Source: a bacterium (GTDB taxonomy: Bacteria; Planctomycetota; Phycisphaerae; UBA1845). From it: DNA of 24,000 nucleotides. A program made the position numbers and the translations under genes. Below the pieces are notes generated by a model. That model did not search any database. It was given only the letters and a program-made list of their open reading frames with translations, and was not told where the DNA came from. The stretch is from NCBI GenBank assembly GCA_024231775.1, contig JAAEQG010000450.1, positions 4,273-28,272 on the forward strand, written 5' to 3'. Of the stretch, positions 13,689 to 20,988 are shown one piece after another. Each line of letters opens with the position of its first letter. The first letter of the stretch is position 1.

Positions 13689-15119
13689 GTGTTCAACCCC
13701 GACAAACCGCCTGGCGCACCCCGAACCGACGCCGCGCCCGAACCGCGCGAACGTGTTCACCTGATCGGGATCGGCGGGTGCGGAATGTCCGCGGCAGCCA
13801 ACCTGCTGATGCGCCAAGGCGCGCGCGTCAGCGGGTCGGACGCCCGTGACTTCGAGGGGTTAGGCCGGCTGGTCGCCCAAGGCGCGATCGTACGAGTAGG
13901 TCACCACGCAGACCACCTACCCCCCAACGCGGACCGCGTAGTGGTCAGCGCCGCCATTCCCCAGTCCAACCCCGAGTGGGTCGCCGCCCGCCGCCGAAAC
14001 CTGCCCGTCCTGTCCTACCCGGAACTGCTGGGAGAGATGATGCGCCATCGGCGGGGGATCGCCGTTGCGGGCACCCACGGAAAAAGCACCACCACAGCCT
14101 TGCTCGCGCATCTGTTCACCTCCGCGGGCTACGACCCCACCTTCATCATGGGGGCCGCCGCCGACCAGTTGGGCGGAAGCTCAGGCGCAGGCCGGGGCGA
14201 ACACTTCATCGTCGAAGCTTGTGAATACGGTCGATCGTTTCTGGCCCTGGAGCCTGCGGTTGCGGGAATCCTGAACGTCGAGGCGGACCATCTGGACTGC
14301 TACCAGAATCTCGATGACATCCGCGCAGCCTTCGCGCAGTTTGCCGCCCAAGTTCAGCCGGGTGGTACGCTCATCACTCCCCACGGAGAGTTGGACCTCG
14401 GCGAGGAGGTTCTTGCTCGTGGTGTCGTGCATGAAACCTACGGTCTTCTCCCCGGGGCTAGCTGGCAAGCGGATAACCTCCAGGCGGAGTCCGGCTGCTG
14501 CGCGTTCGACGTCACCCACGATGGGCGGAAAGTGCTGTCAGCCCGCCTGGCCCTTCCGGGTGTCCACATGGTCCAGGATGCTCTGATGGCTGCGGCACTA
14601 GCCTGCCATGAGGGACTGGCCCCGGAGGCGATCGCCGCCGGTCTCGAGTCGTTCGCAGGAATCGAACGACGGATGTCCCGGCGCGGCACGGGCTGCGGGG
14701 TCACCGTCATCGACGACTATGCTCACCACCCGACGGAAATCGCCGCCACCCTGCAGGCTATCAATGATCGTTATCAACCGCGACGAACCTGGGTCGTCTT
14801 TCAGCCGCATCAGGCCTCGCGGACCCGGCGCTTGATGCACGAGTTCGCCTCCTCCTTCGCGGCGGCGGACGTGATCATCGTCGCAGACATCTACTGCGTC
14901 AGGGACACCGCCGAAGATCGGGCCTCCGTGCGGGCAGCGGACCTCGCGTCGCTGATCCACCGCAACGGAGGCGACGCCCGCTATGTCGGCGATTCAGACG
15001 AAGTCGCCCGCCACGTGGGCGAGAACCTGACCGAAGGAGACCTCGTCGTCACCATGGGAGCCGGTGACGTGTGGAAGATCGCCGATGCACTGGTTGAGCG
15101 AGTTCAAAGAGCGGGTTGA
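13689..15119 (+). CDS. murC: UDP-N-acetylmuramate--L-alanine ligase
   Basis: VHLIGIGGCGMSAAANLLMRQGARVSGSD, GIAVAGTHGKSTTTALL and DDYAHHPTEI. GTG start preceded by GGAGAGGAAG. Confidence 0.9.
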   Translation: MFNPDKPPGAPRTDAAPEPRERVHLIGIGGCGMSAAANLLMRQGARVSGSDARDFEGLGRLVAQGAIVRVGHHADHLPPNADRVVVSAAIPQSNPEWVAARRRNLPVLSYPELLGEMMRHRRGIAVAGTHGKSTTTALLAHLFTSAGYDPTFIMGAAADQLGGSSGAGRGEHFIVEACEYGRSFLALEPAVAGILNVEADHLDCYQNLDDIRAAFAQFAAQVQPGGTLITPHGELDLGEEVLARGVVHETYGLLPGASWQADNLQAESGCCAFDVTHDGRKVLSARLALPGVHMVQDALMAAALACHEGLAPEAIAAGLESFAGIERRMSRRGTGCGVTVIDDYAHHPTEIAATLQAINDRYQPRRTWVVFQPHQASRTRRLMHEFASSFAAADVIIVADIYCVRDTAEDRASVRAADLASLIHRNGGDARYVGDSDEVARHVGENLTEGDLVVTMGAGDVWKIADALVERVQRAG

Positions 15120-15966
15120 ACAGAACGTTCCACTGTCACCGATGACGTGGTTCAAGCTGGGCGGCTGCGCTCAGCATATGTACCGCCCCAACAGCGCCGA
15201 AGATCTCGCCCGCCTCATGCGCCGAGCCCACGAGGAGAACGTCTCCACCCGCGTCCTCGGCGGGGGCGCCAACGTACTCATCCAGGACGACGGCGTGAAC
15301 GGAGTCGTCATCCGCATGGACGACCCGGGGTTTCAGGGCATTGACTTCGAGGGCACCCGCGTGGTGGCTGCGGGCGGCGCCGACCTGATGCGGCTGGTCC
15401 TCGAATGTGTGCGCCGTAGCCTCAGTGGACTGGAGGGCCTGGCGGGTATCCCCGGTACGGTGGGCGGGGCGATCTGCATGAACGCCGGCGGCAAGTTCGG
15501 CTCGATCGGCGATTGCGTCCACGCCGTGCAACTGCTCAGCCTCGATGGAACCGTGCGCATGGTCTCGAAGAGCGAGCTGGATTTCGGGTATCGGTGCTCG
15601 GGAGTAGGCCGGCAGATCGTGCTCTCGGCTGAATTCGAACTGGTAAAGGAAGATTCCGGCGGAGTGCGGGCTCGCTACGACGAGGCTTGGGCCGCCAAGA
15701 AACGATCCCAGCCGCCGCTCAAAGCCCATTCCGCCGGTTGCGTGTTCAAGAATCCGCCGGGGCATTCCGCGGGGAAGCTCATCGACCAGGCGGGAATGAA
15801 GGGCGAAACCGTCGGCGGCGCCTCCGTGTCCGCCGAGCACGCCAACTTCATCATCGCCCACGAAGGAGCGACCTCCGCGGACGTGTTACGCCTCGTCGAG
15901 CGCATCCAAGAGAAGGTGCGCCGGAAGTTCGGCATCAACCTGGAGATGGAAATCGACGTCTGGTAG
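15085..15966 (+). CDS. murB: UDP-N-acetylenolpyruvoylglucosamine reductase
   Basis: VPLSPMTWFKLGGCAQHMYRPNSAEDL, VLGGGANVLIQDDG and SAGCVFKNPPGHSAGKLIDQAG. The start at ATG 15085 (or GTG 15064) overlaps the end of murC by 35-56 nt. Confidence 0.9.
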   Translation: MHWLSEFKERVEQNVPLSPMTWFKLGGCAQHMYRPNSAEDLARLMRRAHEENVSTRVLGGGANVLIQDDGVNGVVIRMDDPGFQGIDFEGTRVVAAGGADLMRLVLECVRRSLSGLEGLAGIPGTVGGAICMNAGGKFGSIGDCVHAVQLLSLDGTVRMVSKSELDFGYRCSGVGRQIVLSAEFELVKEDSGGVRARYDEAWAAKKRSQPPLKAHSAGCVFKNPPGHSAGKLIDQAGMKGETVGGASVSAEHANFIIAHEGATSADVLRLVERIQEKVRRKFGINLEMEIDVW

Positions 15967-15984
15967 AGCCAACCCCAAGACTCA

Positions 15985-16014
15985 TGTGGGACCGGCTTTC
16001 CAGCCGGTCAAGAC
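15985..16014. repeat. Hairpin repeat, copy A (tgtgggaccggctttccagccggtcaagac)
   Basis: Perfect 8-bp stem 15990..15997 / 16002..16009 with loop ttcc, 24 nt after the murB stop. Related copy at 22826..22855. A second 6-bp hairpin (gacagg/cctgtc, 16012..16032) follows directly. Confidence 0.8.
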
Positions 16015-16082
16015 AGGCCAAAAAGCCCTGTCCCGCAGTTTCCAGATGGGCTCTGGCAAGAGCAGCTTCAGTCCAAACGTAG

Positions 16083-16103
16083 CGTCCGGCGTCTCGCCGG
16101 ACG
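16083..16103. repeat. GC-rich hairpin (cgtccggc gtctc gccggacg)
   Basis: Perfect 8-bp inverted repeat with a 5-nt loop. No U-tract follows, so it is not a canonical intrinsic terminator. Confidence 0.7.
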
Positions 16104-16142
16104 TCCTCTGTTCTCGGCCCGTGTGGACGCAGGCCGCTACAC

Positions 16143-16160
16143 TTGGATTGAGAATGCTCA
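16143..16160. repeat. Left copy of an 18-bp direct repeat (ttggattgagaatgctca)
   Basis: 14/18 identical to 16430..16447 (atggattgaacatgctct). Shared cores are TGGATTGA and ATGCTC. The two copies bracket the repeat-rich core of the island. Confidence 0.6.
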
Positions 16161-16166
16161 AAATAC

Positions 16167-16209
16167 GTACCATGGCGCAGCAAAGTGTATGTACCATGGC
16201 GCAGCAAAG
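16167..16209. repeat. Tandem direct repeat, 2 copies, 24-bp period (gtaccatggcgcagcaaag)
   Basis: The 19-bp units at 16167..16185 and 16191..16209 are identical and separated by tgtat. Each unit contains the palindrome CCATGG. Confidence 0.9.
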
Positions 16210-16214
16210 CGTGG

Positions 16215-16256
16215 GATATCAGGATGGCTCCGACAGATATTAGGATGACCCCGACG
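16215..16256. repeat. Tandem direct repeat, 2 copies, 21-bp period (gatatcaggatggctccgaca / gatattaggatgaccccgacg)
   Basis: 17/21 identity between adjacent units. It directly abuts the 24-bp-period repeat. Confidence 0.75.
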
Positions 16257-16286
16257 TTTTAGCCCTGGAAGGGCGTCTGAATATAG

Positions 16287-16313
16287 CCCAGGGTGAGCGC
16301 AGCGAGCCCTGGG
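16287..16313. repeat. Hairpin cccaggg-N13-ccctggg
   Basis: Perfect 7-bp inverted repeat 16287..16293 / 16307..16313 with a 13-nt loop (tgagcgcagcgag). Confidence 0.7.
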
Positions 16314-16335
16314 TAACAAGGCCCCCCAAAGCAGA

Positions 16336-16350
16336 GCCCCCGGAGGGGGC
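16336..16350. repeat. Perfect GC palindrome gcccccggagggggc
   Basis: 6-bp G/C stem with the 3-nt centre gga. Confidence 0.7.
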
Positions 16351-16429
16351 GAAGGAAGAACTCGGCGCCTCCTGAAGCGATGAGGCATCTGCGGAAAACT
16401 GCTTTCATAATACCGGATATACGCTATGC

Positions 16430-16447
16430 ATGGATTGAACATGCTCT
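16430..16447. repeat. Right copy of the 18-bp direct repeat (atggattgaacatgctct)
   Basis: See 16143..16160. Confidence 0.6.
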
Positions 16448-16515
16448 GGCTAGTCGCCGGAAGAGACTCGAATCGACGCTATGATACCAGACCCAGGAGG
16501 ACTATGCCGACCAAC

Positions 16516-16540
16516 GAGCCGCGGACTTCAGTCCGCGCGG
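16516..16540. repeat. Hairpin repeat, ddl-upstream copy (gagccgcggacttcagtccgcgcgg)
   Basis: 7-bp stem 16520..16526 / 16531..16537 with loop ttca. 23/25 identical to 17674..17698; the two differences are a paired A-T to G-C change in the stem. Confidence 0.8.
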
Positions 16541-16642
16541 CCACTAGAACACCAGAAGCAACATGATCGGGAATCGGGCAATCGGCACAATTGAACTAGA
16601 TCTGGTATGACTCGGACCCAGGAGCGGGACGGAGAAAACGCG

Positions 16643-17656
16643 ATGCCTCGAACCGCAAATGCCCACAAGAACGCGAAGGTGCGCCGTCCGCCCTCCACCA
16701 AGACCCGAGGCTCCATGGCCCTGAATACTCTGGACATTACCGTGTTAGCCGGAGGACCCAGCGAAGAGCGCGCGGTGAGCCTGGACAGTGGCCGAGCGGT
16801 ATGCGCCGCACTGAAACGCCTGGGACACCGGGCGACCATGATGGACATCGTTCCCGAAGACCTGGCTGCCCTGGACTCGCCTTGCGACTGCGTGTTCGTC
16901 GCCCTGCACGGGACCTTCGGGGAGGATGGCCAGGTTCAGCGTCTTCTGGAAGGAAGGGGCATATGCTACTGCGGCGCCGGTCCCGCAGCCTCCGCCCTCT
17001 CGATGGACAAAGCCGCCGCCAAGGAACGCTTCACCGAGGCGGGCATCCCCACCCCGCGCTTCGAGGTGGTCACCGCCGAAACCCTGGACCGCGCCGTCGA
17101 CGCCTGGAAGGCGCCGATCGTCATCAAGCCGGTGCGTTCGGGGAGCAGCGTGGATACCTACATTGTGCATCCACCGAGTGGTATCACCGAGGAGCTGAGC
17201 ACTGTCATCGACCGACACGGGGACGCTCTGATCGAGGAGTTCATCGAAGGCCTCGAGCTGACCGTCGGCATCCTCGGCGATCGGGCATTGCCTCCTCTGG
17301 AGATCCGGCCCAAACGAGCGTTCTATGATTACCAAGCCAAGTACGTCGATGACGATACCGAATACATCTTCGATATCGATCTACCTCAGCAAGTGCTCGA
17401 GGACATCAGCCGACAAAGTCTCCGCGCCCACCGACTGCTGGAGGTTCGAGACTTCTGCCGCGTCGACTGGATGGTCGACCGGCACACCCGGAAACCGTAC
17501 CTCCTGGAGATCAACACCATCCCCGGGTTCACCAGTCATTCGCTACTACCCAAGGCGGCAGCCCGGGCGGGTATCTCTTTCGACGAGTTGTGCCAGCGAA
17601 TTGTCACTCTGACCATGCACCGGAGCGAACCTGGTATAGACCGCCGGGCGCCCTGA
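16643..17656 (+). CDS. ddl: D-alanine--D-alanine ligase
   Basis: ITVLAGGPSEERAVSLDSGRAVCAAL, ALHGTFGEDGQVQRLLE, and ATP-grasp segments (KPVRSGSSVDT, EINTIPGFTSHSL). The start is uncertain. ATG 16643 has GGAGA 7 nt upstream, the track ORF starts at ATG 16607, and the conserved core begins at ATG 16715 (MALNTLDITVLAGG). Confidence 0.9.
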   Translation: MPRTANAHKNAKVRRPPSTKTRGSMALNTLDITVLAGGPSEERAVSLDSGRAVCAALKRLGHRATMMDIVPEDLAALDSPCDCVFVALHGTFGEDGQVQRLLEGRGICYCGAGPAASALSMDKAAAKERFTEAGIPTPRFEVVTAETLDRAVDAWKAPIVIKPVRSGSSVDTYIVHPPSGITEELSTVIDRHGDALIEEFIEGLELTVGILGDRALPPLEIRPKRAFYDYQAKYVDDDTEYIFDIDLPQQVLEDISRQSLRAHRLLEVRDFCRVDWMVDRHTRKPYLLEINTIPGFTSHSLLPKAAARAGISFDELCQRIVTLTMHRSEPGIDRRAP

Positions 17657-17673
17657 CCGATCGAGAGTTCAAG

Positions 17674-17698
17674 GAGCCGCGGGCTTCAGCCCGCGCGG
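17674..17698. repeat. Hairpin repeat, ddl-downstream copy (gagccgcgggcttcagcccgcgcgg)
   Basis: 7-bp stem 17678..17684 / 17689..17695 with loop ttca, starting 18 nt after the ddl stop. It may act as a terminator or stabiliser, but no U-tract follows. Confidence 0.8.
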
Positions 17699-17800
17699 TG
17701 GAGCGAAGCGAGAATCGCCTTGAATGTTTGTTCAGTGGGCAGTCGGAAACCAACATCCGTATCAGGCTCGCCATACGGGCCGCAGTAGAGGGCAAGATCA

Positions 17801-18670
17801 TTGGCACGGGCGAAGCGAAAGAAAACATCCGGATCCTACTGGCCGCAGTGGTGGTCATCCAAGGATCAGGCAGCTAAGCGGGCTTCCCTGGTCATGGCCC
17901 TGCAAGTGCTCGCCGTCGCTGGGCTGGCCGTGGGAGCGACGTACGCCCTGGCCACCCTCGAAGCCCGGGTCCACGCCGCGCAACGTTTCGCCGACTCACC
18001 CGTCGTCGAGCTGGCGGACGTCCCCCCCGGATTAGAGGAGACCATCGCCGCGAAAGTGGCGCCGTTTGAACGCGCTCGGGGATACGACCCCGAGATTTGC
18101 CTGAAGATCGGGCGAGCCCTCGAGGCGGACCCCTGGGTTCGACGAGTGCGCAGCGTATCCCGGCTCAGCGATCTGCGTGTGGTCGTCGAGTGCGACTATC
18201 GCGAGCCGGCAGTGCTGATCCAAATCGGCAACATCTTCTACGTAGCGGATAACGAGGCGGTCCGGCTGCCCGGGACCTACGGATACGAACAGACCCTTCC
18301 GCTGATTCAGGGGGTGGGCAGCGAGCCGCCTGCCCCGGGCGAGCGGTGGAACGCCCCGGACCTGGACGCGGGAATGGCCCTGATCCATCTGATCTCCCGC
18401 GAGACCTTTGCCCACCAGATTACCGGTGTCCAGGTGCACAACTTCGGCGGACGCTTATCGCCGAGGGAATCACACCTGGTGTTAGCCACCGACCGGTCTG
18501 GAAGCCTGATCTACTGGGGATCGGCACCCGGGGCAGAGGTGGAGGAGAACTCTCCCGCTCAGAAGATGGCCATCCTGCGCGACAACTACGCCCGTCTTGG
18601 GCGGGTGGATGCGAACTGCGGGCCGATTGACATCTCTGCGTATCCCGACCGGTTTATCGTTCCACGATGA
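17801..18670 (+). CDS. ftsQ: FtsQ/DivIB-like cell division protein (bitopic, POTRA domain)
   Basis: Basic N-terminus (MARAKRKK), one TM helix (LVMALQVLAVAGLAVGATYALATL), then a POTRA-like segment: DPWVRRVRSVSRLSDLRVVVECDYREPAVLIQIGNIFYVADNEAVRLP. It sits in the canonical position after ddl. TTG start with GAGGG 8 nt upstream; alternative ATG at 17894. Confidence 0.7.
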   Translation: MARAKRKKTSGSYWPQWWSSKDQAAKRASLVMALQVLAVAGLAVGATYALATLEARVHAAQRFADSPVVELADVPPGLEETIAAKVAPFERARGYDPEICLKIGRALEADPWVRRVRSVSRLSDLRVVVECDYREPAVLIQIGNIFYVADNEAVRLPGTYGYEQTLPLIQGVGSEPPAPGERWNAPDLDAGMALIHLISRETFAHQITGVQVHNFGGRLSPRESHLVLATDRSGSLIYWGSAPGAEVEENSPAQKMAILRDNYARLGRVDANCGPIDISAYPDRFIVPR

Positions 18671-18834
18671 TTGGGTATTCTGGGTATTATGCGCATATTG
18701 GCCGTGGAGAATGAGGAAATATGCCGCTGCTGCAGCCCGAATACACGTGCGTGAGCGCCACCGGGGTATCGTTCTGACGCCGCCTGGGCGGCGAGTGTTG
18801 CTGGTGGCTGCCAGCCATTATGAGAGGGTTCGTC

Positions 18835-19665
18835 ATGGACGCACACCAGATCACTCAGTTTCTCGATCAGATCGAGCGACTTTGGGTCTCCCAGGTTCCG
18901 CCGGAGTACCAGATTCCGGCGCTCCCCGTCGCCGTGGGCGCGCTCGTCGCGGGCATCGTGCTGAGCGTCCTGGGGGCCAAGCTGGCCCGGTTCGGGATCG
19001 CCTGCGCCTTTGGCGTTCTGGGAATAATGGCGGGCGTCCTGCTGGCGCCGGGAGTCAACCTACCGGAAGCGGTGATCGTGGTCCTTGGCGCCCTCGTGGT
19101 TGGGGGGCTGGGCTACGGATTGTTTCGCTTATGGGTCGGCATATCCGCTGCCGCGTTCTTTGGGGTCGTCGCGGTCAGCATTTACGGAAGCCAAGCGGTC
19201 GTACCGCATTTCGTTGAGTACGATCCAGCCTATCGCCTGGACAGTACCTGCATTGTGTCCGAAACGATCGTTACTGACACTGGAGGTTGCGACCGGTTCG
19301 ACACCGTCCTATCGGACCTGCGCATGTGGGCCGACGATTTCTGGCTGTACGTCCAGCACCGGGAGACCGATGTCAACAGGAAGGTACTGGGGATCGGGTT
19401 GGGGGCGGGCCTGCTTGGCCTGCTGCTGGGCACGATCATCCCGCGTTTGACCTTGATTGTGGTCTCTTCGGTCGTGGGGACGGTGCTGGTGATGTCTGGC
19501 CTAGCCGGTTTGGCGGCGGAGTTTCACCTCGACTTGTCCCGGGCAGGTATGGAGCACGGGCGGTTCGCCGCCGCTGCGGGGATTACTTTCCTGTTGGCGT
19601 CCCTGCTGTTGCAGACTCTGCTGACGCGCCAACCTCCTGCCGCGCCACGTCCCGAGCCTCAGTAG
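18835..19665 (+). CDS. Glycine-rich polytopic membrane protein, unknown function (tentatively DUF4203/TMEM198-like)
   Basis: About 7 predicted hydrophobic helices, and a roughly 60-aa hydrophilic loop with two Cys (VEYDPAYRLDSTCIVSETIVTDTGGCDRFDTV...). ATG 18835 has GAGGG 7 nt upstream; the track ORF starts at 18820. The N-terminal TM motif LPVAVGALVAGIVLSVLGAKLARFGIACAFGVLGIMAG resembles the next gene. Family name is from memory only. Confidence 0.6.
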   Translation: MDAHQITQFLDQIERLWVSQVPPEYQIPALPVAVGALVAGIVLSVLGAKLARFGIACAFGVLGIMAGVLLAPGVNLPEAVIVVLGALVVGGLGYGLFRLWVGISAAAFFGVVAVSIYGSQAVVPHFVEYDPAYRLDSTCIVSETIVTDTGGCDRFDTVLSDLRMWADDFWLYVQHRETDVNRKVLGIGLGAGLLGLLLGTIIPRLTLIVVSSVVGTVLVMSGLAGLAAEFHLDLSRAGMEHGRFAAAAGITFLLASLLLQTLLTRQPPAAPRPEPQ

Positions 19666-19774
19666 CCAGGTGCGGATCGCGCTCGGCGTCAGCCGTTGCC
19701 GATCTGCATCTCAGACCAGGTGCAGCCACGGGTGATCCGCCCGAGCTCGCGCCGCAAAGCTCTGGGGGTGGACG

Positions 19775-20395
19775 GTGATAAGCCTGCAAACTTACCTCAT
19801 GTGGCTGCGGGGCCTGGATACGCTAGCCGGTCTTCCCATTATCCTCATCGGTCTGGCGGTCATGCTCGGCGGATGGCGGATGGGCCGTGTCTGCGTGATC
19901 CTCTCCTGCGCGGCGATTGGCGCGGGCGTTGGCTGGCATGTGGCGCACGTGTCCAGCAGTCCGTGGCTGGCATTGGCTCTGGGTGGTGGCTTGGTCACTG
20001 GGGTGCTGGGGTTCCTGTTGCGCGCCTACGCGGCGCCGGTGCTCGGTGGTGCGATCGGGGCTGCGGTCGTGATGCAGCTCCTGATCCCGTTTCGCCTCGA
20101 TGGATGGCCCTGGTGGATCTCCTTCGTCTTAGCCTTTGCCTGCGCAGGGGCCTTGTGCATGACTAATCTCCGCCTGGTGGTAATCATCATCACCTCACTC
20201 GAAGGCGCGCTGCTCCTGGTGTCCGGGCTGGTTCCGATCATGACCATGTGGCCTGGGCTCCTACGCTTCTTCGAGAGCACCAACAGAGTGAGCTGGATAT
20301 TCTTCCCGTTCATGGTGCTGGTCCCGGCGATCGTGGGCTACTTCCTCCAAGTCGCCGATTCAAGGCGTCATCCTTCCGGATCAGCCAGGGCCTGA
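19775..20395 (+). CDS. Glycine-rich polytopic membrane protein, apparent paralog of the preceding gene
   Basis: About 6 hydrophobic helices. LPIILIGLAVMLGGWRMGRVCVILSCAAIGAGVG parallels the LP-x5-G...G-x-(K/R)-x-x-R...G-x3-G pattern of 18835..19665. GTG 19775 or ATG 19799 as start. Confidence 0.55.
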   Translation: MISLQTYLMWLRGLDTLAGLPIILIGLAVMLGGWRMGRVCVILSCAAIGAGVGWHVAHVSSSPWLALALGGGLVTGVLGFLLRAYAAPVLGGAIGAAVVMQLLIPFRLDGWPWWISFVLAFACAGALCMTNLRLVVIIITSLEGALLLVSGLVPIMTMWPGLLRFFESTNRVSWIFFPFMVLVPAIVGYFLQVADSRRHPSGSARA

Positions 20396-20448
20396 ACGGA
20401 ACAGCCCAGGCTCCCCTCAGTGCATGGCGAGGAGCAATGGGATAGGCT

Positions 20449-20988
20449 CTACTCAATGGTACTGAGCGACTCCATTATGCGCGTGCTCATGTTCTGATAA
20501 GCGATGATCCCCACCACCCCCAAGATGTCCTCATCCGAGAAACCGCCGCTTCTAAGTTCCTGAATATCGACAGGACTGCACGCATCCGGAGACCGAGTCA
20601 CCTTGACAGCCAGGTCTGCAATCAGTCTCTCACGAACGCTCAGCTCCGCTTTGGTATAGTCTTCCGCTACCTGTGTAGCCAGTTCCTTATTCTTCGCCGC
20701 TCGACCGAGGGCTTCAAGGTGGCTAGCCGTTCAGTGTACGCATCCAACAAAGGAGGATGTCACCAACGCAGCGACCTCCTTCTCCCGCGCGCTCAAGCCG
20801 GACGCATTGCGATACACCGCCGAGCATAGACTGTCTATGCACTTCGCAACCTCCGGGGACAGGCTCGTGATTCGCGTGAGGTCAGATACCTCCCCAGTCA
20901 ATGCATTGCGCGTCTCATTATATAGCTGCTTTACTTCTTCATTCGAAGTGTCATCCTCGTCGATCCCTATCCACGGTACCCAACCCAT
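20449..20988 (-). CDS. AhpD/carboxymuconolactone decarboxylase-family peroxidase-related protein with in-frame UGA (candidate selenocysteine at residue 86)
   Basis: Track ORF 20731..21000 ends ...SAREKEVAALVTSSFVGCVH at TGA 20733..20731. My hand translation in the same frame continues for 93 codons (TASHLEALGRAAKNKELATQVAEDYTKAELSVRERLIADLAVKVTRSPDACSPVDIQELRSGGFSDEDILGVVGIIAYQNMSTRIMESLSTIE) to TAG 20451..20449. The family motif C-x-x-C-x-x-x-H reads C-V-H-[TGA]-T-A-S-H here. ATG 20988 has GGAGA 5 nt upstream; the track start, TTG 21000, is less likely. Confidence 0.7.
20676..20725 (-). promoter_or_regulatory. SECIS-like stem-loop immediately 3' of the in-frame UGA
   Basis: In the mRNA, counting from the first nt after UGA: apical stem +19..+24 / +29..+35 (GCCCUC/GAG(C)GGC, one bulged C) closing a GGUC tetraloop at +25..+28. 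Lower helices CCUU/AAGG (+12..15 / +43..46) and UAGCC/GGCUA (+6..10 / +51..55). Folded by eye only. Confidence 0.4.

What the first reader, a model, noticed from the sequence alone, without database searches (positions are those of the whole stretch)
18671..20395. Two paralogous polytopic membrane proteins occupy the ftsA/ftsZ position after ftsQ
Seen in sequence: the dcw cluster runs ...murB, ddl, ftsQ-like, then continues on the same strand with two glycine-rich multi-TM proteins (18835..19665 and 19775..20395). They share an N-terminal LP-x5-G...G-x-K/R-x-x-R...G-x3-G helix pattern. No actin-like or tubulin-like gene follows. Established knowledge: in most bacteria ftsQ is followed by ftsA-ftsZ, and Planctomycetota are reported to lack FtsZ with an unresolved division mechanism. 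Inference: these genes are positional candidates for lineage-specific envelope or division factors. The gaps (164 and 109 bp) mean co-transcription is not guaranteed.
Basis: inference. Interest (0 to 1): 0.62.

Follow-up and report, generated by a model that had tools for sequence, protein, structure and literature searches.

The report
Paired DUF4203 membrane genes after ftsQ
In this FtsZ-less Phycisphaerae planctomycete the cell-wall/division gene cluster ends with a real but divergent ftsQ followed by two anciently duplicated seven-helix membrane proteins of the uncharacterised DUF4203 family; relatives usually keep them there, which makes them a testable but unproven lead for envelope growth or division.

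Summary
Two genes, A (18835-19665, 276 aa) and B (19775-20395, 206 aa), follow ddl and ftsQ on the + strand. No ftsA or ftsZ follows, and neither was found in the 97.6%-complete genome.

- **ftsQ:** The "ftsQ-like" gene fails the Pfam models, but its confident model matches only FtsQ structures.
- **A and B:** BLASTP finds no similarity between them. Family profiles do (hhalign E 8e-10), and both match genuine Pfam PF13886 (DUF4203, TM7S3/TMEM198-like) proteins from other Planctomycetota (B E 4e-20, A E 2e-11; reversed-sequence controls about 1e-4). They are divergent DUF4203 proteins, below Pfam's cut-off.
- **Synteny:** ftsQ-A is adjacent in 35 of 38 checkable same-order genomes. ftsQ-A-B is kept in 30 of 41 checkable. 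The genes downstream of B differ in every relative I checked. Linkage broke several times, and in other families of the class the A-B pair stands alone.
- **Regulation:** In this family the ftsQ-A gap carries a conserved, genome-rare promoter-like motif.

My best reading (0.45) is an accessory membrane complex co-expressed with the wall/division machinery. It cannot be an FtsA/FtsZ substitute, because it has no cytoplasmic domain. The function is untested. The scan found this same arrangement earlier in other genomes.

The parts
13689..15119 (+). murC (context: upstream dcw gene)
   Evidence: Pfam Mur_ligase, Mur_ligase_M and Mur_ligase_C.
15064..15966 (+). murB (context)
   Evidence: Pfam FAD_binding_4 and MurB_C.
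16607..17656 (+). ddl (context)
   Evidence: Pfam Dala_Dala_lig_N and Dala_Dala_lig_C.
17801..18670 (+). Divergent ftsQ: short basic cytoplasmic tail, one membrane helix, then POTRA and beta domains in the periplasm
   Evidence: No Pfam match for the window protein. Only 1 of 22 orthologues touches FtsQ_DivIB_C (E 0.009) and 1 of 22 touches POTRA_1. The AF2 model has pLDDT 88.8. The top 8 Foldseek PDB hits are all FtsQ (2vh2, 5z2w, 8hhf, 6h9o, 2vh1; E 4e-7 to 2e-5, probability 1.0). The family is present in 293 of 301 class genomes.
18671..18834 (+). ftsQ-A intergenic gap (164 nt) with conserved non-coding boxes: TATTAT at 18685-18690 and the bipartite GGAAATAT-N14-CGAATAC at 18715-18744
   Evidence: AATA[AT]-N14-15-CGAA[TC] lies 44-117 nt upstream of the A start in 11 loci of the own-family clade. 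The strict pattern occurs only 6 times in the 6.7-Mb genome, counting both strands. No terminator-like site lies in the gap in the gene direction; the only hit there is one 5-pair stem on the opposite strand, and the scan found 4 sites against 1.8 expected by chance. No Rfam match.
18835..19665 (+). Gene A: 276-aa, seven-helix inner-membrane protein. It is a divergent DUF4203 (TM7S3/TM198-like) paralogue with an N-terminal helix and a loop of about 60 aa between helices 4 and 5.
   Evidence: 18 close homologues, and 536 cluster representatives in 1.84 billion proteins, all about 270-290 aa. hhalign against genuine PF13886 proteins: probability 97.3%, E 2e-11. AF2 model pLDDT 69. Foldseek against the PDB finds nothing.
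19666..19774 (+). A-B intergenic gap (109 nt)
   Evidence: No terminator-like site in the gap; one weak site (5 pairs) lies inside A's 3' end at 19564-19580, 85 nt before its stop. No conserved motif was found upstream of B in any locus. Gap length varies from 47 to 367 nt among relatives.
19775..20395 (+). Gene B: 206-aa, seven-helix inner-membrane protein. It is the DUF4203 paralogue closer to the canonical family and lacks the long loop.
   Evidence: hhalign against genuine PF13886 proteins: probability 99.3%, E 4e-20 over 194 columns. A plain HMM of the B family hits Pfam-positive DUF4203 proteins at E down to 1e-20. Shared motifs are G-x-R-x-x-R after helix 1, T-S-x-E-G-A in helix 6 and a Q at the end of helix 7.
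20449..20988 (-). Convergent AhpD/CMD-like gene; marks the end of the conserved block (not part of the feature)
   Evidence: Pfam CMD on the - strand ORF. The earlier scan note e1-2460297 reads it as a selenoprotein; I did not re-test that.

Best explanation
A and B are two anciently duplicated, seven-helix inner-membrane proteins of the DUF4203 (TM7S3/TMEM198-like) superfamily. The predicted topology is N-terminus outside and C-terminus inside. Almost nothing protrudes from the membrane except a loop of about 60 aa in A, predicted to be periplasmic.

They most likely pack, alone or together, into a small glycine-zipper membrane complex. That complex is expressed with the distal dcw genes and acts as an accessory (scaffold, stabiliser or regulator) of the membrane-embedded peptidoglycan-synthesis and division machinery: FtsQ, an FtsB-like protein, FtsW and class B PBPs. 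It is not a replacement for FtsA or FtsZ.

**Shown:** gene reality, paralogy, superfamily membership, order-wide linkage to ftsQ, and the failure to find ftsZ or ftsA.
**Inferred:** topology, complex formation, co-expression, and any role in wall growth or division.
For: - **Conserved block edge.** The block ...murC-murB-ddl-ftsQ-A(-B) is kept across at least ten families of the order, although A orthologues are too diverged for unaided HMM detection (f2: E 1e-5 genome-wide). The gene after B differs in every relative I checked.
- **Counts.** ftsQ-A is adjacent in 35 of 38 checkable genomes. ftsQ-A-B is kept in 30 of 41.
- **Tight spacing.** In nine of the eleven f3-f5 loci measured the ftsQ-A gap is 0-59 nt, which suggests one transcript.
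- **Anchor gene.** The upstream gene is a genuine FtsQ by fold.
- **Partners present.** The genome keeps an FtsB/DivIC-like gene, two class B PBPs, MreB and MreD, but no FtsZ or FtsA was found.
- **No catalytic signature.** The invariant residues are glycines, interface arginines, Trp and Gln. The membrane core has no conserved charged residue except E143 in B. This fits a packing or scaffold protein better than an enzyme.
- **Travelling pair.** Adjacent paralogues that move together, even outside dcw, suggest a hetero-oligomer.
Against: - There is no experimental or expression evidence.
- Linkage was lost in several lineages: genus g5 of the own family has ftsQ, A and B on three contigs, and f117, G551, G561/G563 and G281 also lost it.
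- In other families of the class the pair sits among unrelated genes such as queA and a citrate-synthase-like gene (named from their translations; not Pfam-scanned).
- Canonical DUF4203 genes in other Planctomycetota are not near dcw genes.
- In this family the ftsQ-A gap holds its own promoter-like motif, so A and B may be regulated apart from ftsQ.
- Families f2 and f3 mostly lack B, so a heteromer cannot be obligatory.
- In Planctopirus limnophila most dcw genes are dispensable (PMC12283558), so dcw membership does not prove a division role.
Confidence: 0.45

Rival explanations
1. A and B are general-purpose DUF4203 membrane proteins with a housekeeping role unrelated to division. Their place at the end of dcw is an inherited gene order of one order. 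It is tolerated because they sit at the operon's edge and is kept only by weak selection or inertia.
For: - The pair stands alone with unrelated neighbours in other families of the class.
- Linkage broke independently several times, and the genes were retained elsewhere in those genomes.
- Canonical DUF4203 genes elsewhere in the phylum show no dcw context.
- The family also occurs in eukaryotes with unrelated roles (Pfam description of PF13886).
- A has its own candidate promoter in the gap.
Against: Gene order normally decays quickly at this divergence (FtsQ about 25% and A about 20-30% identical). Here the block edge falls exactly after A/B in every relative I checked, while everything downstream is shuffled. 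In several families ftsQ and A are 0-60 nt apart, which is typical of operon partners.
Confidence: 0.3
2. A and B are envelope-stress proteins. In this family they are transcribed from a conserved alternative-sigma (ECF-like) promoter in the ftsQ-A gap and protect or repair the membrane under stress.
For: - The bipartite motif AATA[AT]-N14-15-CGAA[TC] is conserved 44-117 nt upstream of A in 11 loci.
- Only 6 strict copies exist in the whole genome. Apart from the A copy, four lie 65-125 nt upstream of ORFs, and two of those encode small membrane proteins (a TM2-domain protein and a small membrane peptide).
- The geometry recalls ECF promoters such as B. subtilis SigW, TGAAAC-N16-CGTATA. I recalled this from memory and did not test it.
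Against: - The motif is missing in genus g3 and in families f2-f5, where A abuts ftsQ.
- No sigma factor or transcription start has been identified.
- Five other genomic hits are too few to define a regulon, and one of them lies inside hemL.
- The motif could equally be an operator or a 5' UTR element.
Confidence: 0.1
3. A and B form a transporter or channel, for example for a peptidoglycan precursor, the carrier lipid or an ion needed for wall synthesis.
For: They are polytopic seven-helix proteins encoded next to peptidoglycan-precursor genes. Polytopic families of unknown function (DedA, DUF368) were recently shown to recycle undecaprenyl phosphate; this is my own background knowledge.
Against: - The genome already has MurJ and DedA-family genes, so no obvious transport step is missing.
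- There is no conserved charged or polar network inside the membrane apart from one Glu in B.
- No structural match to any transporter in the PDB, although the model is only of moderate confidence.
Confidence: 0.1

Closest known systems
Pfam PF13886, TM7S3/TM198-like domain (formerly DUF4203; eukaryotic TMEM198 and TM7SF3 plus uncharacterised bacterial proteins)
   Same: Seven-helix core. Full-length collinear profile-profile matches to genuine members from other Planctomycetota: B E 4e-20, A E 2e-11. Shared motifs are G-x-[KR]-x-x-[KR] after helix 1, T-[SA]-x-x-G-A in helix 6 and Q near the end of helix 7.
   Different: Neither window protein reaches Pfam's gathering score (A 15 bits against 29.2; B no hit). 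A carries an extra N-terminal helix and a loop of about 60 aa between helices 4 and 5. Only this Phycisphaerae branch is a tandem pair tied to ftsQ. No bacterial member has a known function, and no paper in the library mentions DUF4203.
Canonical dcw cluster ending ...ddl-ftsQ-ftsA-ftsZ (E. coli, Verrucomicrobium spinosum)
   Same: The gene order murC-murB-ddl-ftsQ is the same, and the ftsQ is genuine by fold.
   Different: ftsA and ftsZ were not found anywhere in the genome, as published for Phycisphaerae (PMC12283558). The two genes that follow ftsQ are integral membrane proteins with no cytoplasmic domain, so they are not analogues of FtsA or FtsZ.
Small polytopic accessory proteins of wall-synthesis machines, such as MreD of the MreBCD elongasome
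   Same: Small, multi-helix, with no catalytic motif. Encoded as the distal gene of a morphogenesis operon. Function is inferred mainly from context.
   Different: No sequence or profile similarity. This genome has its own MreD (Pfam). The analogy concerns the way of working only and is untested.
FtsZ-independent division in Chlamydiota and Planctomycetota
   Same: A peptidoglycan-containing lineage that lacks FtsZ but keeps FtsQ, FtsW, PBPs and MreB.
   Different: DUF4203 proteins have not been implicated in those systems in the papers I searched.

Membership tests
Pfam PF13886 (TM7S3/TM198-like, DUF4203) | Score above Pfam's gathering threshold (29.2 bits) against the family HMM | tested here: not met
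   A scores 15 bits (E 0.02); B has no hit. Across the families, 9 of 18 A members and 4 of 9 B members give sub-threshold hits (best E 0.0033 and 1.3e-4). The six-frame genome search does not recover A or B.
Pfam PF13886 (TM7S3/TM198-like, DUF4203) | Full-length homology to proteins that do pass the Pfam threshold | tested here: met
   I aligned 15 Pfam-positive Planctomycetota proteins. hhalign gives B probability 99.3%, E 4e-20 over 194 columns, and A probability 97.3%, E 2e-11 over 181 columns. Reversed and shuffled controls give E 1e-4 to 0.9 over short stretches. The B-family HMM hits these proteins directly at E down to 1e-20.
Pfam PF13886 (TM7S3/TM198-like, DUF4203) | Seven transmembrane helices | tested here: inconclusive
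   The AF2 model of A (pLDDT 69) shows helices consistent with seven membrane spans plus an N-terminal helix. Hydropathy agrees, but the loops are too short to separate the spans automatically. N-out/C-in topology is inferred from the positive-inside rule only.
FtsQ/DivIB (for the upstream gene 17801-18670) | Match to Pfam POTRA_1 (PF08478) and FtsQ_DivIB_C (PF03799) | tested here: not met
   No hit for the window protein. Only 1 of 22 orthologues matches each model, weakly. A profile search of PDB sequences finds no FtsQ.
FtsQ/DivIB (for the upstream gene 17801-18670) | Bitopic protein with a POTRA domain plus the FtsQ beta domain fold | tested here: met
   AF2 pLDDT 88.8 with a single long helix at 23-59 followed by alpha/beta domains. 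The Foldseek top 8 are all FtsQ (E 4e-7 to 2e-5, probability 1.0), followed by DivIB and POTRA domains.
FtsQ/DivIB (for the upstream gene 17801-18670) | Position in the dcw cluster directly after ddl | tested here: met
   ddl-ftsQ adjacency holds in the window and in all order-level loci examined.
Functional substitute for FtsA/FtsZ (cytoskeletal or tethering division protein) | A cytoplasmic domain able to polymerise or to tether a polymer to the membrane | tested here: not met
   A and B are almost entirely membrane-embedded. The cytoplasmic loops are 1-5 residues and the C-terminal tails about 12 residues. No actin-like or tubulin-like domain is present.
Paralogous pair (A and B derived from one ancestor) | Significant collinear similarity over the whole core | tested here: met
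   BLASTP finds nothing. hhalign of the family profiles gives probability 96.5%, E 8e-10 over 183 columns, against controls of E 0.02-0.3. In the tree A forms one clade (94/86) and 18 of 21 B sequences form another (95/82).

The most novel reading that the evidence does not exclude
A and B are core, lineage-specific membrane components of the FtsZ-independent divisome of this Phycisphaerae order. They would mark or organise the constriction site in the membrane and recruit FtsQ and the septal peptidoglycan synthases, so binary fission would fail without them.
Probability: 0.1. Interest if true: 0.85.

Novelty: new variant of a known kind. Interest (0 to 1): 0.42.

Why it matters
How Planctomycetota divide without FtsZ is an open question, and Phycisphaerae are the branch that still divides by binary fission. 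A conserved, uncharacterised membrane-protein pair tied to ftsQ gives that question a specific, cheap target for localisation, depletion and interaction tests.

It would also give the first functional context for any bacterial member of the DUF4203/TMEM198 family. The evidence so far is only genomic association with clear exceptions, so this is a lead and not a discovery.

Tried and rejected
- **Pairwise similarity:** BLASTP of A against B found nothing. Only profiles show the relationship.
- **Structure search for A:** Foldseek against the PDB gave no hit with E below 0.9. The model is only moderate (pLDDT 69).
- **Sequence route to FtsQ:** A profile search of PDB sequences with the FtsQ-like family returned only chance ribosomal S8 matches. 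The fold search was needed.
- **A's loop as a dcw-specific FtsQ-binding insert:** rejected. The loop is also present in the stand-alone A-like proteins L042, L046 and L049.
- **A and B filling a missing flippase or carrier-lipid recycler:** not supported. MurJ and DedA are present; DUF368 was not found.
- **A replacing FtsB/FtsL:** weakened. A DivIC/FtsB-like gene exists. The Pfam FtsL model is insensitive (it matched only E. coli among the controls), so the lack of an FtsL hit says little.
- **Class-wide ftsQ-DUF4203 linkage:** rejected. In families f10 and f11 ftsQ is followed by other polytopic proteins with no detectable relation to A, B or DUF4203.
- **Known RNA in the gaps:** none in Rfam.
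- **Terminators or sigma-70 consensus promoters between the genes:** no sigma-70-type promoter anywhere in 17500-20800; four weak terminator-like sites (1.8 expected by chance), none inside either gap in the gene direction (one on the opposite strand in the ftsQ-A gap, one inside A's 3' end).
- **Naming a cultured carrier:** the genome-contig scan returned only MAG titles.
- **Literature:** no paper mentions DUF4203, and none of the planctomycete division papers I read discusses genes after ftsQ.
Full report
**1. What is in the sequence**

On the + strand the window carries murC (13689-15119), murB (15064-15966) and ddl (16607-17656), all with clear Pfam matches. Next come a 289-aa gene with no Pfam match (17801-18670) and then two hydrophobic ORFs.

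ORF A is best read from the ATG at 18835 (276 aa). This start aligns with the first residue of every homologue and with the database copy of the protein. ORF B runs 19775-20395 (206 aa, GTG start). The gaps are 164 and 109 nt.

The next gene (20449-20988) lies on the opposite strand and is an AhpD/CMD-like gene (earlier scan note). B therefore ends the co-directional run. A DUF1559/prepilin-type gene further on and the names attached to homologues place the genome in Planctomycetota, class Phycisphaerae.

**2. Is the upstream gene really ftsQ?**

By sequence it barely is. Of 22 orthologues, one touches FtsQ_DivIB_C (E 0.009) and one touches POTRA_1 (E 0.16). A profile search of PDB sequences finds nothing relevant.

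By structure it is. The AlphaFold model built from the 22-sequence alignment is confident (pLDDT 88.8; one long helix at 23-59, then alpha/beta domains). Its eight best Foldseek matches in the PDB are all FtsQ (E 4e-7 to 2e-5, probability 1.0), followed by DivIB and POTRA domains. The family occurs in 293 of 301 sampled genomes of the class.

**3. Are ftsA and ftsZ present elsewhere?**

The genome is 97.6% complete but split into 1,677 contigs. It has no tubulin/FtsZ match. The three FtsA-domain matches are two PilM proteins and MreB.

The genome does carry a DivIC/FtsB-like gene, two class B PBPs, MurJ, DedA and MreD. The lack of ftsZ, ftsA and ftsB in Phycisphaerae has been published (PMC12283558). 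Here an FtsB-like match just passes the Pfam cut-off.

**4. What are A and B?**

BLASTP sees no similarity between them. Their family alignments (18 and 9 sequences) match each other over 183 collinear columns (hhalign probability 96.5%, E 8e-10).

Pfam gives only recurrent sub-threshold hits to PF13886 (TM7S3/TM198-like, formerly DUF4203): 9 of 18 A members and 4 of 9 B members.

To test this properly I collected 15 proteins from other Planctomycetota that do pass the Pfam cut-off and aligned them.
- B matches this alignment at probability 99.3%, E 4e-20 over 194 columns.
- A matches at probability 97.3%, E 2e-11 over 181 columns.
- Reversed alignments give E about 1e-4 over short stretches, and column-shuffled ones give E 0.3-0.9. 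Hydrophobic composition therefore does not explain the matches.
- A plain HMM of the B family hits the Pfam-positive proteins directly, at E down to 1e-20.

The shared motifs can be seen by eye: G-x-[KR]-x-x-[KR] after helix 1, T-[SA]-x-x-G-A in helix 6 and a Q near the end of helix 7. Both proteins are thus divergent members of the DUF4203 superfamily. B is the more canonical one. A is a derived branch with an extra N-terminal helix and a loop of about 60 aa between helices 4 and 5.

The model of A (pLDDT 69) shows the expected bundle and has no match in the PDB. The invariant residues are glycines, arginines at the predicted cytoplasmic interface, Trp, Pro and Gln. The only conserved acidic residue in the membrane is the Glu of TS-x-EGA in B. 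From the positive-inside rule I infer N-out/C-in topology.

A maximum-likelihood tree puts all A-like proteins in one clade (94/86). It places 18 of 21 B-like proteins in another clade (95/82), on the same side as canonical DUF4203. The second gene of family f3 forms a separate long branch. Both clades include the stand-alone pairs, so the duplication predates the order.

**5. Is the position conserved?**

*Close and mid-distance relatives.* Contigs carrying homologues of 34-59% identity show the same order: ftsW-murG-murC-murB-ddl-ftsQ-A-B. The gene after B differs each time: DUF4920, a peptidase M28, an AP endonuclease, and here the AhpD-like gene.

*Class sample.* Sixteen-kb regions from 20 genomes, then 15 more, were scanned with my own HMMs. 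I combined these with the match coordinates from the genome searches. Within the order, ftsQ-A is adjacent in 35 genomes and not adjacent in 3 (two genomes of genus g5, and G281).
- This count includes six genomes where the whole-genome search had missed the diverged A.
- It also includes four f2 genomes whose weak A hits (E about 1e-5 to 1e-6) lie exactly after ftsQ.

*Order sample.* In a second sample of 61 genomes from 11 families, FtsQ is in all 61 and a true B in 44. The arrangement ftsQ-A-B is intact in 30, broken in 11 and undeterminable in 3 because of contig ends.

*Exceptions.*
- The breaks fall in at least five separate lineages: genus g5, f117, G551, G561/G563 and two f3 genomes.
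- In G548 only B has moved away.
- Families f2 and f3 mostly have A without a detectable B (3 of 10 genomes each have a B match).
- Outside the order, the A-B pair is still adjacent but far from ddl and ftsQ, among unrelated genes.
- In families f10 and f11, ftsQ is followed by other polytopic proteins with no detectable relation to A or B.
- Canonical DUF4203 genes in other classes have no dcw neighbours within 1.5 kb.

**6. Are the genes co-transcribed?**

No terminator-like site lies in either gap in the gene direction. The scan gave four weak 5-pair sites in 17500-20800 against 1.8 expected by chance: one on the opposite strand in the ftsQ-A gap, and three inside A, the last 85 nt before its stop. 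No known RNA family matches in the region.

Comparative data give two pictures.
- In nine of the eleven f3-f5 loci measured, the ftsQ-A gap is only 0-59 nt, which suggests a single transcript.
- In the window's own family the gap is 87-210 nt and holds conserved boxes.
  - A TATAAT-like hexamer lies shortly after the ftsQ stop (TATTAT at 18685-18690 here; exact TATAAT in four relatives).
  - A bipartite AATA[AT]-N14-15-CGAA[TC] lies 44-117 nt before the A start in 11 loci, with a spacer that is not conserved. Here it is GGAAATAT...CGAATAC at 18715-18744.

The strict pattern occurs only six times in 13.4 Mb of two-strand sequence. Four of the other five copies lie 65-125 nt upstream of ORFs; two of these encode a TM2-domain protein and a small membrane peptide. 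One copy lies inside hemL. A looser copy precedes mreD.

This looks like a promoter, with a geometry like ECF-sigma promoters, or like an operator.

**7. Interpretation**

*Shown.* The genes are real. They are ancient paralogues of the DUF4203 superfamily. They are attached to a genuine ftsQ at the distal edge of the dcw block through most of one Phycisphaerae order. No ftsZ or ftsA was found in the genome.

*Inferred.* Because operon-edge synteny persists at 20-30% protein identity while downstream genes turn over, I favour functional coupling to the wall/division machinery as a membrane-embedded accessory complex (confidence 0.45).

*What they are not.* They cannot be cytoskeletal substitutes for FtsA or FtsZ, since they have essentially no cytoplasmic mass.

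*The main rival (0.3).* They may be general membrane proteins whose linkage is historical. Support comes from the repeated loss of linkage, the stand-alone pairs and the separate promoter-like element.

*Weaker alternatives.* An envelope-stress reading and a transporter reading each stand at 0.1.

**8. Novelty**

The family (PF13886) is known but has no assigned bacterial function, and no paper in the library mentions DUF4203. The planctomycete division papers I searched do not discuss genes after ftsQ.

This scan has already reported the same arrangement in several other genomes, with the same verdicts. I reached my conclusions before reading those notes, and they agree.

- the reversed-sequence controls;
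- the explicit list of linkage breaks;
- the finding that A's loop is not specific to dcw-linked copies;
- the conserved promoter-like motif in the ftsQ-A gap.

Noticed in passing
window 18685-18690 and 18715-18744 (ftsQ-A gap): Conserved non-coding boxes: TATTAT shortly after the ftsQ stop, and a bipartite GGAAATAT-N14-CGAATAC. The bipartite motif is kept 44-117 nt upstream of gene A in 11 related loci, with a spacer that is not conserved. Its strict form occurs only 6 times in the whole genome. It may be an ECF-like promoter or an operator.
   Followed up: partly
own genome: C784:6092(-), C114:809(-), C1379:20402(-), C102:877(+), C249:9518(+): The same rare bipartite motif lies 65-125 nt upstream of a TM2-domain protein, a small membrane peptide and two unknown ORFs. 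A looser copy precedes mreD. This could be a small envelope regulon, but the sites are too few to tell.
   Followed up: partly
L073-L077 (genomes G247, G199, G087, G007, G248; other families of the class): In other Phycisphaerae families ftsQ is also followed on the same strand by a small polytopic membrane protein (218-288 aa). These proteins show no detectable relation to A, B or DUF4203 (hhalign E above 0.03).
   Followed up: partly
L041, L044, L047 (family f3): The second membrane gene after A in family f3 forms its own long branch next to the A clade and not inside the B clade. It may be an independent duplication or a very diverged B.
   Followed up: no
G106 and G176 (genus g5, own family); L071 2369-5467: In this genus ftsQ, A and B lie on three different contigs, and ftsQ is followed by a 1033-aa ORF instead. 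B of G176 contains an in-frame TGA.
   Followed up: no
window 17801-18670: The ftsQ of this class is invisible to the Pfam POTRA_1 and FtsQ_DivIB_C models, yet it folds confidently as FtsQ. Annotation pipelines will label it hypothetical.
   Followed up: yes
own genome C405:8182-8370: A DivIC/FtsB-like match just over the Pfam cut-off (31.5 bits), although ftsB is reported as lost in Phycisphaerae (PMC12283558).
   Followed up: no
window 15967-16606: There is a 640-nt non-coding gap between murB and ddl. It was also flagged by earlier scan notes as rich in hairpins and repeats. I did not examine it.
   Followed up: no
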